DNA of 64,000 bases from Malacoraja senta (lineage: Eukaryota). The notes below the pieces were generated by a model. That model did not search any database and was not told where the DNA came from. It saw nothing but the letters and a program-made list of their open reading frames with translations. Below, piece after piece: positions 58,991 to 61,175 of this stretch. The stretch spans positions 18,540,001-18,604,000 of the forward strand of contig CM075988.1 of NCBI GenBank assembly GCA_038087875.1, in the 5' to 3' direction. Numbering within the stretch: position 1 is the stretch's first letter; each line of letters begins with the position of its first letter. The position numbers were made by a program, and so were the translations under genes.

Positions 58991-60121
58991 GTCTTTGTAG
59001 GTTAATTGGCTTGGTGTAAGTGTAAATTGTCCCAAGACTGTGTAGGATAGCGTTAATGTGCTGGGATCGCTGGTCAGCGCGGACTTGGTGGGACGAAAAG
59101 CCTGTTTCCACGCTGTATCTTTAAAGTCTAAAGTCTACCTGGTTTATCTCTATGACTAATTTTAATTCACATCTACCAAACTCTTTGTATTGTAATGTAT
59201 GTGTTGCTGGCACCAACCACTAATAGTACGTTAATGGCCTAATTAGACACCTGCTGTTTATTAATGTGGATTATAATCTGGCAGTGGGTTTGCAAAATTC
59301 TGGGAAGAAACAAGTCTGCGATTTAAAAAAATCATAAATTCATTTAAATTTCATATTTTAAATCTAACTAATATACAGCACTATTCACACTTTTTGCAGC
59401 AAGTTCACTTCTCTTGCAAATACCAGTTGAATAATTTAAATATAAAACCATGTTTATTTTGGCACGAATAAAAGATCAGATTTCAAAAAAAGGGAGAGTG
59501 TGGTTTGTCGGTTCAAAAAGGTATGTTTAATAAAAGGCAGGAAATAATTTGGGAGTTCTTCAAGTAATGTTATTTAGATGGAATTGCAATAACTGTGGAT
59601 TTATTGTGCTATTGAATTTGGCAAATGGCTCAGGTGCTTTAGAGTGATGGGTTTCACAGTCATCCACATCTTCAAGGTGAATGTCAGAAAACTCAAGAGG
59701 TTGGTGCCTGGTGAAGTGGCACACCTGGTGACCACACATCTAGGAGCTTTCCCAGCTGCAGCTTCTTGCTTGAAGCCCATCGTCTTAATTTGAGTTTAGG
59801 ATGAGGGGGGACCTCATTGAAACTTACCGAATAGTGAAAGGCCTGGTTTGAGTGAGTGTGGAGAGGATGTTTCCACTAGTGGGAGAGTCTAGGACCAGAG
59901 GGCACAGCATCAGAATAAAAGGACGTACCTTCAGAAAGGAGATGAGGAGGAACCTCTTTAGTCAGAGGGTGGTGAATCTGTGGAATTCATTGCCACAGAC
60001 GGCTGTGGAGGCCGTCAATGGATATTTTTAAGGCGATTGACAGATTCTTGATTAGTAAGGATGTCAGGGGTTATGGGGTGAAGGCAGGACAATGGGATTG
60101 AGAAGGAAAGATAGATCAGCC

Positions 60122-60268
60122 TTCTTCTTCTACTTCTTCTTTCCTGTGGCGTGCGCAGCCTAAAGTTGTTGGACAACTTGTTCTATTTGATCTTCCGTTT
60201 GTGCACGTCGAGTTGATTGCATTAGTCGAAACAGGGCGGACCACGTGAAGGTTGCAATCTTCCACCCC
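60122..60268 (-). mobile_element. 147-bp short retroposon with (GAA)n tail and 5' HDV-like ribozyme
   Basis: 11-bp TSD ATAGATCAGCC (60111-60121, 60269-60279); no tRNA head; 3' end ...CGCCACAGGAAAGAAGAAGTAGAAGAAGAA. Confidence 0.9.
60215..60268 (-). ncRNA. Minimal HDV-like self-cleaving ribozyme (54 nt, predicted)
   Basis: P1 GGGGUGG / AA / P2 GAUUGCA / P3 ACC / L3 UUCACGU / P3' GGU / P1' CCGCCCU / G-U-UUCG-A / J4/2 CUAA / P2' UGCAAUC. Confidence 0.85.
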
Positions 60269-61175
60269 ATAGATCAGCCATGATTGAATGACTTGGTGGG
60301 CTGAATGGCCTTATTCTGTTCCTAGAACTTATGAGTGACATTCGTCTCAGCCCAAATTGGATTATGATTTAATTGCGGATGGCTTGATTACAATCATGTA
60401 ATGTCTTTCCAATGACGGATTAGCATTCAACAAAAACTTTTCACTGTAACTAGGTACATGTGACAATAAACTCAACTATACTAAACTAAATTAATTATGC
60501 TCAGCTAATAATTGACAAGATGCTGCCTCCATACACAGCACTGTTTCGGTGTCTGTAAAATGACCCAACTCTCATCTCGCTGCTACCATTGGGAAGAAGG
60601 TAGAGGAACCGCAAGGTGGAGGGAGCCGGCGACGGCAGCGGACGCTGGACAAAGGGCCGCTAAGCACACACGGGGGTCTTACCTTCTGCGTCCTCAAGGT
60701 CGGCTGCGGGAGGCGTCCCTGGGGACACGAAGGCTGAAGGCTGGGTGAGGAGAGGGATGACAGTTTGCTGGTGATCTGGATGGAGGGTGGAGGCGACGGC
60801 TGCAATGGATCTTTAAGGCCAGCTGCAACTGGGATGTTGAAAATGGTGCCAAAGGTTGGTGCCTCTTGCATATGGACTCAGTGAGCTGTTTCTATGCGTT
60901 CAGTACTTAATCAGATGTGGTACTAAAGCATGGCAATAATCTTACTGATCTGTATGCAAAATAATTTCACTGTTCCTTGGTACTCATGATAATACAAGGA
61001 CCATTGAACCGCTGAGTTGAGAAGCATGACATCCAGGTTCAAGAACAGCTTCTTTTCATCAACCATCAGGCTGCTGAACCACACCACACAACACTAACCA
61101 CAACCCCACCTCAACAATAATCCACTGTGGACTATGGAGCTACAAGGATCTGCAGATGCCAAAATCTTGAGCAAA

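What the first reader, a model, noticed from the sequence alone, without database searches (positions are those of the whole stretch)
60122..60268. 147-nt retroposon capped by a complete minimal HDV-like ribozyme
Seen: a discrete insertion with an 11-bp TSD and (GAA)n tail, lacking a tRNA/5S/7SL head. On the minus strand its first 54 nt read GGGGUGG-AA-GAUUGCA-ACC-UUCACGU-GGU-CCGCCCU-GUUUCGA-CUAA-UGCAAUC. This supplies the parts of the HDV nested double pseudoknot: a 7-bp P1 with the G1.U wobble, perfect 7-bp P2, 3-bp P3, L3 UUCACGU, a possible 1-bp P1.1, P4 reduced to a UUCG stub, and J4/2 CUAA with the putative catalytic C at 60225. The element's first base is the predicted cleavage-site G. 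Known: HDV-like ribozymes process the 5' ends of R2, RTE and Ingi/L1Tc-type retrotransposon RNAs. Inferred: a promoter-independent SINE that cuts itself out of host read-through transcripts and uses the RT of a (GAA)n-tailed LINE (Vingi/Ingi or RTE clade). Each sense-oriented intronic copy could also cleave host pre-mRNA. I cannot tell whether this family is already catalogued.
Basis: partly seen in the sequence, partly recalled or inferred. Interest (0 to 1): 0.92.

Follow-up and report, generated by a model that had tools for sequence, protein, structure and literature searches.

The report
Ribozyme-headed short retroposon family
This is one copy of a young, very abundant 145-base mobile element, in what is probably a cartilaginous-fish genome, whose first 54 bases fit the published signature of a minimal HDV-type self-cutting RNA; that would let it trim itself out of host transcripts before a LINE enzyme copies it back into DNA.

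Summary
Window 60122-60268 (minus strand) is a discrete retroposon copy with an 11-bp target-site duplication and a (GAA)n tail. It has no tRNA, 5S or 7SL head.

It belongs to a family with at least 5,588 tails in this 1.94-Gb genome. In 41 of 63 distinct copies a duplication of 8 bp or more directly abuts the first G.

The first 54 nt meet every sequence and pairing rule of a published HDV-like ribozyme descriptor, taken with a 7-bp P1. That descriptor gave 0 hits in 200 randomised windows. All 44 hits in 405 kb of this genome are heads of this family. The only Rfam families that align over the head are two HDV ribozyme families, both far below their cut-offs.

Variants inherited by subfamilies keep the fold: U.G to U-A, G-C to G.U, and the free N of J4/2 CNRA.

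There is no two-sided covariation, no RNA 5'-end evidence and no cleavage assay, so activity is inferred.

The last ~43 nt match the 3' end of a compact APE+RT LINE. No LINE sharing the head was found.

Verdict: a probable new family of a known kind, a non-autonomous retroposon processed by a 5' HDV-like ribozyme. It stands out for its P4-less ribozyme with a CPEB3-type core.

The parts
60269..60279 (-). Upstream copy of the 11-bp target-site duplication GGCTGATCTAT
   Evidence: sequence; TSD 11, gap 0 for L001, the same place
60215..60268 (-). 54-nt head: candidate minimal (P4-less) HDV-like self-cleaving ribozyme; predicted cut between 60269 and 60268
   Evidence: descriptor match; Rfam RF02682 16 bits and RF00094 15 bits, whole-model alignments starting at G60268
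60262..60268 (-). P1 5' strand GGGGUGG (positions 1-7); G1 pairs with U36 as a wobble
   Evidence: pair counts (helix 1, 93.8% of cells paired)
60253..60259 (-). P2 5' strand GAUUGCA (positions 10-16)
   Evidence: (helix 2, 97.8% paired)
60240..60252 (-). P3 ACC/GGU enclosing L3 UUCACGU (positions 17-29); C22 is proposed to pair with G37 (P1.1)
   Evidence: L3 rule TYYHCGY; helix 3, 98.3%; C22-G37 kept in 38 of 39 distinct rows
60233..60239 (-). P1 3' strand CCGCCCU (positions 30-36)
   Evidence: subfamily variants G32A (U5.G to U5-A) and C31U (G6-C to G6.U)
60226..60232 (-). J1/4 G37 U38 plus the 5-nt linker UUCGA that stands in place of P4
   Evidence: descriptor s4 = RN and s5 of at least 3-4 nt
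60222..60225 (-). J4/2 CUAA; putative catalytic C at 60225 (position 44)
   Evidence: CNRA; position 45 is U, G or A in different subfamilies while C44, A46 and A47 are invariant in 57 copies
60215..60221 (-). P2 3' strand UGCAAUC (positions 48-54)
60177..60214 (-). Body of unknown origin (positions 55-92)
   Evidence: no Rfam or tRNA match; evolves faster between subfamilies than the head
60143..60176 (-). 3' part shared with the 3' end of a compact APE+RT LINE (positions ~93-126)
   Evidence: local alignments of SINE copies to L108: 40 of 43 (old subfamily) and 38 of 44 (young subfamily)
60122..60142 (-). (GAA)n tail with one GTA interruption
   Evidence: tails of other copies
60111..60121 (-). 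Downstream copy of the target-site duplication GGCTGATCTAT

Best explanation
The element is one copy of a recently active, ORF-less, LINE-dependent retroposon family of about 135-147 nt.

It is built from three parts:
- A 54-nt head that folds as a minimal, P4-less HDV-like self-cleaving ribozyme.
- A ~40-nt body of unknown origin.
- A ~35-nt 3' part plus (GAA)n tail copied from the 3' end of a compact single-ORF APE+RT LINE.

Proposed mechanism:
1. Copies have no promoter of their own and are transcribed as part of longer host transcripts (inferred).
2. The ribozyme cuts just 5' of G1. This frees an RNA whose first base is the element's first base (inferred from the fold and from the uniform 5' ends).
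3. The LINE reverse transcriptase recognises the shared 3' end and GAA repeats, then primes on a nicked target. The shared tail is shown; recognition is inferred.
4. cDNA synthesis runs to G1 and integration makes a 6-14-bp target-site duplication (shown).

The ribozyme core is of the CPEB3 type. L3 is UUCACGU. P1.1 would be one C-G pair plus U.U. J4/2 is CGAA in the older subfamilies and CUAA, as in HDV, in the youngest.
For: Family and mobility:
- 1,681 exact head 20-mers and 5,588 exact tail 20-mers, with 0 in reversed controls.
- Of 63 distinct copies, 41 have a TSD of 8 bp or more directly abutting position 1, and 9 more have one within 1-3 nt (tallied by hand from its rows).
- In a sample of 20 loci chosen only by the tail 20-mer, 17 carry the head.
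- Depth in three other coded organisms falls 15- to 36-fold exactly at 60269/60270.

Ribozyme:
- All rules of the published descriptor are met: P3 of 3 WC pairs, L3 TYYHCGY, J1/4 RN, J4/2 CNRA, P2 of at least 6 bp, P1 R...Y.
- There is 1 hit in the window and 0 in 200 randomisations.
- On the 71-nt stretch, only 3 of 4,227 Rfam families come up at E<=10. Two of them are HDV ribozyme families, aligned over their whole models with P1 starting at G60268.

Constraint:
- The young and old groups differ at 2 of 54 head positions, both in single-stranded J1/2 and the N of CNRA. They differ at 11 of 74 body positions (Fisher p = 0.043).
- In contigs of other organisms, the only head variants reaching 10% are U45G, G32A (U.G to U-A) and C31U (G-C to G.U).

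Precedent:
- P4-less HDV-like ribozymes cleave in vitro (bioRxiv 10.1101/2023.06.13.544163, passages).
- In CPEB3, P1.1 is one G-C pair plus U-U. U20, C22, A23 and G25 lie in L3, and J4/2 is C57 G58 A59 A60 (PMC4836649, passages).

LINE partner:
- L108 ends ...WMSTLDLQL*AVHAIRKKK, and the SINE tail aligns at 40 of 43.
- Public protein P0002 is 80% identical and reads ...QAVHAIRKKK across the same tail.
- Full-length relatives are ~1,000-aa APE+RT proteins on 3.2-3.4-kb contigs.
Against: - No cleavage was measured.
- There is no two-sided compensatory change in any of the 18 pairs. The paired fraction (96.3%) equals that of the shuffles, because the family is too uniform.
- Rfam scores are far below the gathering cut-offs: 16 against 44 bits and 15 against 50 bits.
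- The pseudoknot-free fold of the head is no more stable than shuffles (-12.6 kcal/mol, z = -0.04).
- All 23 sequencing runs offered are stored as contigs, and only one is on record as RNA. Neither transcription nor a 5' end at G1 could be seen.
- The descriptor text as extracted shows P1 of 5 or 6 bp. The element matches only when P1 is 7 bp. That 7 bp is the P1 length of HDV and CPEB3 is my recollection.
- A uniform 5' end could also come from a fixed transcription start.
- No LINE carrying this head was found.
Confidence: 0.72

Rival explanations
1. The head only looks like an HDV-like ribozyme, or is a dead relic. The uniform 5' end is set by transcription initiation from an unrecognised internal Pol III or Pol II promoter. 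The structured head would then serve RNA stability or binding of the LINE protein, not self-cleavage.
For: - No compensatory covariation.
- Rfam scores are below the cut-offs.
- Thermodynamic stability is ordinary.
- No RNA-end data.
- In L1Tc the same 77 nt is both an internal promoter and a ribozyme (PMC3383444, abstract), so a promoter role for a head is not far-fetched.
Against: - The full set of descriptor constraints is met at exactly the first base of the element. There were 0 hits in 25.6 Mb of randomised sequence.
- No other hit occurs in 405 kb of real sequence.
- Inherited variants fall only where the HDV-like consensus allows them.
- There is no tRNA, 5S, 7SL or snRNA similarity.
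Confidence: 0.15
2. It is simply a bipartite internal-deletion derivative of its partner LINE. Head and body would be the LINE's own 5' end, and the tail its 3' end. These are ordinary 'N'-type non-autonomous LINEs, as known for RTE, Vingi, Ingi and R2. This differs from the best explanation only in origin, and it would make the finding more ordinary.
For: - Bipartite ORF-less non-autonomous LINEs are reported from RTE, Ingi, Vingi and R2, and usually keep the LINE's 5' end. [quoted passage not shown]
- The partner here is a compact single-ORF LINE.
- Relatives sit on contigs only ~200-300 nt longer than their ORFs. That leaves room for a short ribozyme-bearing 5' UTR.
Against: Four exclusion-pattern scans of the whole genome looked for the head, or head plus body, followed by a shared non-SINE continuation. 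They found only indel, truncated or interrupted SINE copies:
- 23 hits.
- 0 hits.
- 9 hits, each with a different continuation.
- 34 hits, all with the SINE body.

These scans need exact anchors. They would miss a LINE whose 5' end has diverged, or one present only as 5'-truncated copies.
Confidence: 0.4
3. Assembly or annotation artefact: the apparent insertion is not a mobile element but a locally duplicated or chimeric stretch.
For: Some loci are exact duplicates including their flanks: L006/L007, L024/L029, L025-L027, L037/L051 and L040/L053.
Against: - There are thousands of dispersed copies on many contigs with different flanks and different TSDs.
- The family is present, with the same ends, in contigs of runs from other coded organisms.
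Confidence: 0.01

Closest known systems
R2 SIDEs (short internally deleted elements of R2; Eickbush and Eickbush 2012, PMC3414825, abstract; PMC6765202, passage)
   Same: ORF-less non-autonomous non-LTR element. [quoted passage not shown] The 3' end is recognised by the autonomous element's protein.
   Different: R2 and SIDEs insert site-specifically in 28S rDNA and ride on rRNA transcription. Their ribozymes are larger and have P4. Here insertions are dispersed, with variable TSDs and a (GAA)n tail, the partner is an APE-type LINE, and the head is only 54 nt.
NARTc/RIME/SIDER, non-autonomous relatives of L1Tc/ingi in trypanosomatids (PMC3383444, PMC4035085, abstracts)
   Same: Dispersed non-autonomous retroposons whose first ~77 nt form an HDV-like ribozyme shared with an APE-type LINE.
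   Different: The host is a protist. Pr77 is also an internal promoter. The ribozyme is 77 nt. The head is demonstrably shared with the LINE, which was not found here.
Bipartite non-autonomous LINEs of RTE and Vingi, and SINEs built from them (Kojima 2018, PMC5786205, passages)
   Same: Short ORF-less elements that keep LINE ends and use microsatellite-type tails. They occur in vertebrate hosts. Their link to 5' ribozymes is discussed in that paper.
   Different: In that paper the ribozyme link is a suggestion for some RTE families. Vingi is not among the six clades it lists as having ribozymes. Here the head meets the HDV-like descriptor in full, but a LINE sharing the head was not found and the partner's clade is untested.
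Mammalian CPEB3 ribozyme (PMC4836649, passages)
   Same: Same core layout. U20, C22, A23 and G25 lie in a 7-nt L3. P1.1 is one C-G pair plus U.U. J4/2 is 4 nt, C-G-A-A, as in the older subfamilies here. P1 starts with G1.
   Different: CPEB3 is a single-copy intronic sequence conserved in mammals, has a P4 hairpin and is not part of a mobile element. CPEB3 (RF00622, accession recalled) was not among the Rfam families listed at E<=10.
Minimal (P4-less) HDV-like ribozymes, drz-Mtgn and theta ribozymes (bioRxiv 10.1101/2023.06.13.544163, passages)
   Same: They lack the P4 domain yet self-cleave in vitro. They are of similar small size.
   Different: They are found in gut metagenomes and Caudoviricetes phages, often next to tRNAs. 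None is a eukaryotic retroposon head.
Ribozyme-bearing SINE-like elements of schistosomes (hammerhead; twister variants with Perere-3/SR3; PMC6765202 passage, PMC8501958 abstract)
   Same: Short non-autonomous retroposons that carry a self-cleaving ribozyme used to process transcripts.
   Different: The ribozyme classes differ (hammerhead, twister). For the hammerhead SINE-like elements the review describes Pol III transcription of tandem copies.

Membership tests
HDV-like (delta-like) self-cleaving ribozymes | Nested double pseudoknot: P1 and P2 interleaved, with P3 closed by L3 inside P1 | tested here: met
   P1 7 bp, P2 7 bp and P3 3 bp can all form. 96.3% of 702 cells are paired over 39 distinct copies, against 23-43% when partners are slid by 1-3 columns. 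The slid control favours a structure derived from these same sequences.
HDV-like (delta-like) self-cleaving ribozymes | Conserved core letters of the published descriptor: L3 TYYHCGY, J1/4 RN, J4/2 CNRA with the catalytic C, P1 R...Y with G1.U | tested here: met
   UUCACGU, GU, CUAA and G1...U36. C44, A46 and A47 are invariant in 57 copies, and position 45 varies U/G/A.
HDV-like (delta-like) self-cleaving ribozymes | P1.1 between L3 and J1/4 | tested here: inconclusive
   One C22-G37 pair is possible (38 of 39 distinct rows), plus U21.U38 as described for CPEB3 (PMC4836649). A single, almost invariant pair cannot be tested by covariation.
HDV-like (delta-like) self-cleaving ribozymes | Covariation supporting the helices | tested here: inconclusive
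   0 pairs show changes on both sides. There are only one-sided changes: U5.G32 to U5-A32 in 11 of 39 distinct rows and G6-C31 to G6.U31 in 4.
HDV-like (delta-like) self-cleaving ribozymes | Reaches the curated Rfam score of an HDV family | tested here: not met
   RF02682 scores 16.0 bits against 44, and RF00094 15.0 bits against 50. Both models hold a P4 of 20-35 nt that is absent here, and neither scores P2.
HDV-like (delta-like) self-cleaving ribozymes | Site-specific self-scission 5' of G1 that depends on the J4/2 cytosine | not testable with these tools
   No assay was possible, and only contigs rather than raw RNA reads were on offer.
Classical SINE | Head derived from tRNA, 7SL, 5S or snRNA with an internal Pol III promoter | tested here: not met
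   ARAGORN finds 0 genes. No such family appears among the Rfam matches at E<=10.
Classical SINE | 3' end shared with a partner LINE; TSDs; short and non-coding | tested here: met
   Tail identity to the LINE 3' end is 40 of 43. The element is 147 nt.
Bipartite non-autonomous LINE (SIDE, NARTc, RTE-N type) | 5' end identical to the 5' end of the autonomous LINE | tested here: inconclusive
   No LINE with this head was found by the exclusion patterns. No full-length copy of the partner LINE was recovered: only one ~440-nt 3' fragment is among the bases held.
Bipartite non-autonomous LINE (SIDE, NARTc, RTE-N type) | 3' end identical to the LINE's; no ORF | tested here: met
   the element is 147 nt.
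Minimal (P4-less) HDV-like ribozymes | P4 domain absent | tested here: met
   Only 5 nt (UUCGA) lie between J1/4 and J4/2. The definition is from bioRxiv 10.1101/2023.06.13.544163.
Theta ribozymes | Location in Caudoviricetes phages next to tRNA genes | tested here: not met
   The host is a 1.94-Gb eukaryote genome, and no tRNA lies nearby.
Vingi or RTE clade, for the partner LINE | Placement of the RT in the clade by phylogeny with reference elements | not tested
   Only the general plan is known. It is a single ~1,000-aa ORF with APE and RT and no RNase H, and it has a C-x-C-x8-H-x4-C motif with a weak zf-RVT match. No clade references were at hand.

The most novel reading that the evidence does not exclude
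The head is not the partner LINE's own 5' end. It is a free-standing ribozyme module that takes the place of a Pol III promoter. That would make this a distinct class of 'ribozyme-headed SINE' that lives entirely on host read-through transcription.

Its CPEB3-type core (L3 UUCACGU, a one-pair P1.1 plus U.U, J4/2 CGAA) would mean that retroposons of this kind were the source from which the mammalian CPEB3 ribozyme was exapted.

With thousands of intact heads, sense-oriented copies would also act as built-in transcript-cleavage sites that shape host gene expression.
Probability: 0.15. Interest if true: 0.8.

Novelty: new member of a known kind. Interest (0 to 1): 0.55.

Why it matters
Outside a few retrotransposon clades, HDV-like ribozymes still have few understood roles.

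- P4-less 'minimal' forms were first found in metagenomic samples. One later study assigned them to gut phages.
- A young family of thousands of copies with such a minimal ribozyme at its first base would extend the 'ribozyme makes the 5' end' strategy. It would reach a very small dispersed element in what is probably a vertebrate.
- It would give a natural 54-nt ribozyme with built-in subfamily variants (J4/2 CUAA, CGAA, CAAA) to compare.
- It would offer a testable lead on where the CPEB3-type core came from.
- It would imply thousands of potential self-cleavage sites in host transcripts.

If the head turns out to be the partner LINE's own 5' end, the case is an ordinary, though neat, bipartite non-autonomous LINE.

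Tried and rejected
1. A LINE fragment lies between head and tail within one TSD (L031/L054). I first read it as the parent LINE. That was rejected. It is a CR1-like LINE whose copies normally end in (TATGGTTA)n. Of 30 loci examined, none is followed by the SINE tail except L057, which is the same place as L054. It is a nested insertion.

2. The head in L040/L055 is followed by unrelated sequence. There is no SINE 3' part within 9.8 kb and no ORF of 175 aa or more nearby. The continuation is a ~73-nt repeat with 906 candidates, and an inverted copy lies just upstream. It is not a LINE 5' end.

3. Six exclusion-pattern scans looked for a long partner. They gave 2, 7, 0, 0, 9 and 34 hits, all SINE deletion, truncation or indel variants. 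could not have seen the LINE, because the LINE shares the excluded letters.

4. RNA evidence. None of the 23 runs offered is stored as raw reads, and only X13 is on record as RNA, with 8 contigs laid. Nothing can be said about expression, strand or 5' ends.

5. Covariation and pseudoknot-free folding of the head and of the remaining 93 nt (z = -0.04 and +0.31) give no support.

6. Public DNA of the partner LINE:
   - Metagenome contigs gave only distant, decayed relatives (38% identity or less) with no intact ORF and no descriptor hit.
   - Genome contigs and viral contigs gave none.

7. Earlier findings of this scan: nothing for this genome or sequence, and four unrelated notes by words.

8. 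Papers not held, so cited only through others or from recall: Ruminski 2011, Webb and Luptak 2011, Kojima 2011, Riccitelli 2014. Repbase and Dfam were not available, so I cannot say whether the family is already catalogued. Full-text searches linking HDV-like ribozymes with shark, or ribozyme with Vingi, gave nothing on such an element.
Full report
**1. What is there**

On the minus strand the window reads ...TCAATCATGGCTGATCTAT | GGGGTGGAAGATTGCAACC...GAAGTAGAAGAAGAA | GGCTGATCTATCTTTCC....

- The 147-nt stretch 60268 to 60122 is flanked by a perfect 11-bp direct repeat, at 60279-60269 and 60121-60111.
- It ends in a GAA repeat.
- The copy sits inside another interspersed repeat. The flanks 60060-60120 and 60290-60330 are themselves covered at very high depth in other organisms' contigs.
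- ARAGORN finds no tRNA. Rfam E-value scans list no tRNA, 5S, 7SL or snRNA family.

**2. It is a large, recently active family**

- A DNA search of the window's own 1.94-Gb genome gave 1,469 first-look candidates. All 40 scored were 97-100% identical and all began at query base 1.
- All 30 loci fetched start GGGGTGG (one GGGATGG). They end in GAA repeats and have their own flanks.
- An exact 20-mer of the head occurs 1,681 times and an exact 20-mer of the 3' part 5,588 times. Reversed-pattern controls gave 0.
- The difference is mostly due to older subfamilies whose head differs by one letter inside my 20-mer.
  - I compared the two coordinate lists by eye. Of the first 100 tail matches on contig 1, 17 pair with a head match.
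  - I fetched 20 of the unpaired ones. Of these, 17 are complete elements with J4/2 CGAA (12) or CAAA (5). One is a 5'-truncated copy, and two have the tail preceded by other sequence.
- Mean pairwise divergence is 1.2-1.5% in the young group and 7-9% in the old group.
- TSDs, tallied by hand from the rows, over 63 distinct copies:
  - 41 have a TSD of 8 bp or more directly abutting position 1.
  - 9 have one 1-3 nt away.
  - 13 have a short TSD or none detected. One of these is interrupted by a nested LINE, so the automatic search failed.
- Contigs of runs from three other coded organisms hold the family. Depth falls 36-, 34- and 15-fold between 60260-60269 and 60270-60279 (X1, X2, X6). Diverse loose ends start at 60269. 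The 5' boundary is therefore the same there.

**3. The head as an HDV-like ribozyme**

The layout of positions 1-54 is:

| Element | Sequence | Positions |
|---|---|---|
| P1 | GGGGUGG / CCGCCCU, with G1.U36 and U5.G32 wobbles | 1-7 / 30-36 |
| J1/2 | AA | 8-9 |
| P2 | GAUUGCA / UGCAAUC | 10-16 / 48-54 |
| P3 | ACC / GGU | 17-19 / 27-29 |
| L3 | UUCACGU | 20-26 |
| J1/4 | GU | 37-38 |
| Linker in place of P4 | UUCGA | 39-43 |
| J4/2 | CUAA | 44-47 |

Match to the published descriptor:
- The descriptor for HDV-like ribozymes with a loose P4 comes from the RNArobo supplement, Fig. S11 (PMC4870747). It asks for P3 of 3 Watson-Crick pairs, L3 TYYHCGY, J1/4 RN, J4/2 CNRA, a 6-bp P2 and a P1 that runs R...Y. 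Every one of these is met.
- The extracted text shows P1 as 5 or 6 bp. The element fits only with 7 bp. I recall 7 bp as the P1 length of HDV and CPEB3. The PDF extraction may have dropped letters, so I flag this as a weakness.
- The 7-bp version hits the window once, at the element's first base. It gave 0 hits in 200 Markov randomisations.
- A slightly looser version (P1 6-7 bp, P4 up to 120 nt) gave 44 hits in 405,430 bases of this genome, all heads of this family.
- The paper reports that such descriptors give very few hits: 7 in 98 Mb scanned for mosquito, and 11-16 in 2.1 Gb for sea urchin.

Rfam on the 71-nt stretch returns three matches at E<=10:
- RF02682 (HDV-F-prausnitzii): 16.0 bits, E = 0.26.
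- RF00094 (HDV ribozyme): 15.0 bits, E = 1.9.
- A partial riboswitch match.

Both HDV alignments span the whole model and put the start of P1 at G60268. Both are far below the gathering scores of 44 and 50 bits. That is expected when P4 is missing and P2 is not modelled, but they are not significant on their own.

**4. Evolutionary signal**

The family is too uniform for covariation.
- The alignment holds 57 gap-free copies (39 distinct). Six of the 63 distinct copies were dropped for indels.
- No pair has changes on both sides, and the paired fraction equals that of the shuffles.

What there is points the same way.
- The recurrent, presumably inherited variants are:
  - G32A, turning U5.G into U5-A (11 of 39 distinct rows).
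  - C31U, turning G6-C into G6.U (4 rows).
  - A8G in J1/2.
  - U/G/A at position 45, the N of CNRA.
- C44, A46 and A47 are invariant.
- In the other organisms' contigs, only three head positions reach 10% variant share: 45, 32 and 31. Nine places vary in the rest of the laid stretch.
- The young and old groups differ at 2 of 54 head positions and 11 of 74 body positions (Fisher p = 0.043).
- Single-copy changes are scattered and mostly CpG decay, as expected for dead copies.
- Pseudoknot-free folding gives no signal (z = -0.04).

**5. Likeness to known ribozymes**

- *CPEB3.* The NMR paper (PMC4836649, passages) describes U20, C22, A23 and G25 in L3. It describes a P1.1 of one G-C pair and a weaker U-U pair, and a 4-nt J4/2 of C57 G58 A59 A60. 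The head here has the same letters at the same positions, and the older subfamilies have CGAA.
- *HDV.* The Rfam HDV consensus shows J4/2 CuAA, as in the young subfamily.
- *Minimal forms.* HDV-like ribozymes lacking P4 cleave in vitro. In that study's searches they were found in gut phages (bioRxiv 10.1101/2023.06.13.544163, passages).

**6. The partner LINE**

Two of the 20 tail-selected loci have the tail preceded by ...TTGATCTA instead of the SINE body. One of them (L087/L108) is the decayed 3' end of a LINE ORF.
- It reads ...HKWGMTDSPACD*GHPDQTIPHIVNDCP...WMSTLDLQL*AVHAIRKKK.
- It has one in-frame stop.
- The true stop lies inside the sequence shared with the SINE.

SINE copies align to this end over their last ~43 nt. 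The score is 40 of 43 for an old-subfamily copy and 38 of 44 for a young one.

Public relatives:
- A 292-aa protein that is 80% identical and reads through the same tail as ...QAVHAIRKKK.
- An eel protein that is 74% identical.
- 47 longer relatives, mostly ~1,000-aa proteins with APE and RT domains and no RNase H, on contigs of 3.2-3.4 kb. Several are from insects.

[quoted passage not shown] This fits the general plan of RTE or Vingi (PMC13708176 and PMC5786205, passages), but I did not test the clade.

Only this one ~440-nt fragment of the partner was present in the DNA I held. No LINE that begins with the head was found. Whether the head comes from the LINE's own 5' end therefore stays open.

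**7. Host**

The closest named relatives of a neighbouring CR1-like LINE ORF are stingray proteins at 77-78% identity. Birds, turtles and frogs are at about 40%. The genome is probably that of a cartilaginous fish. I did not go further.

**8. Mechanism and status of each step**

| Status | Step |
|---|---|
| Shown | Dispersed retroposition with TSDs, a fixed 5' end at G1, a 3' end shared with a LINE, and recent activity |
| Inferred from the family's known chemistry | Cleavage 5' of G1 with C44 as the general acid, leaving a 5'-OH on the element RNA |
| Inferred | Transcription by read-through from host promoters; recognition of the tail by the LINE's reverse transcriptase |
| Not tested | Effects on host pre-mRNAs |

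**9. Novelty**

Non-autonomous retroposons that use a 5' HDV-like ribozyme are in print.
- Examples are R2 SIDEs, NARTc and RTE-related elements.
- Kojima 2018 discusses the link between 5' ribozymes and bipartite non-autonomous LINEs.

This is therefore a new member of a known kind. It has some unusual traits: a 54-nt P4-less ribozyme with a CPEB3-type core, a host that is probably a vertebrate, a very small total size, and so far no LINE sharing the head.

I could not check Repbase or Dfam. Full-text searches for HDV-like ribozyme with shark and for ribozyme with Vingi found no description of such an element.

Noticed in passing
L054:145-3540 (own genome, contig 1): One SINE copy with a single TSD (CTAGTTGGCC) is interrupted exactly between head and body. 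The insert is a 3.25-kb 5'-truncated CR1-like LINE holding the end of the ORF1 esterase and the ORF2 APE+RT. That LINE family normally ends in (TATGGTTA)n. This is a nested insertion.
   Followed up: yes
L055:1-210 (identical to L056; own genome, contigs 9 and 2167): A head-only copy (55 nt) lies between two inverted copies of a ~73-nt repeat that has about 906 candidates in the genome. No SINE body or tail follows within 9.8 kb. The two contigs are 100% identical over 9.9 kb, probably assembly redundancy.
   Followed up: partly
window 60060-60120 and 60290-60330: The element sits inside another very abundant interspersed repeat. The same repeat turns up in the flanks of several other loci (e.g. 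L015, L063, L076, L106) and is covered at very high depth in contigs of other organisms.
   Followed up: no
window 60146-60269, contig 15 of run X13: One 276-nt contig of the only run on record as RNA holds positions 1-68 of the element followed directly by a second copy starting at position 1. This is a head-to-tail partial dimer or a nested copy.
   Followed up: no
L025, L026, L027 (own genome, contig 522, at about 12.9, 34.8 and 68.9 kb): Three copies with identical flanks on one small contig suggest a locally repeated segment of tens of kb. Similar identical pairs are L006/L007 and L024/L029.
   Followed up: no
proteins P0003-P0050: Relatives of the partner LINE are 74% identical in an eel and 42-48% identical in sandfly, planthopper and moth proteins. 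This is a patchy spread that might reflect horizontal transfer.
   Followed up: no
protein P0052: A protein filed under a lactic-acid bacterium (Carnobacterium) is 58% identical over 95% of the CR1-like LINE ORF2 of this genome. It is most likely animal DNA contaminating that bacterial assembly.
   Followed up: no
(own genome): Seven copies start exactly at position 89, six of them of the older TCCTA type. No copy of the young type starts at position 66. 5'-truncated copies exist but seem uncommon: 1 of 18 SINE copies in the tail-selected sample.
   Followed up: partly
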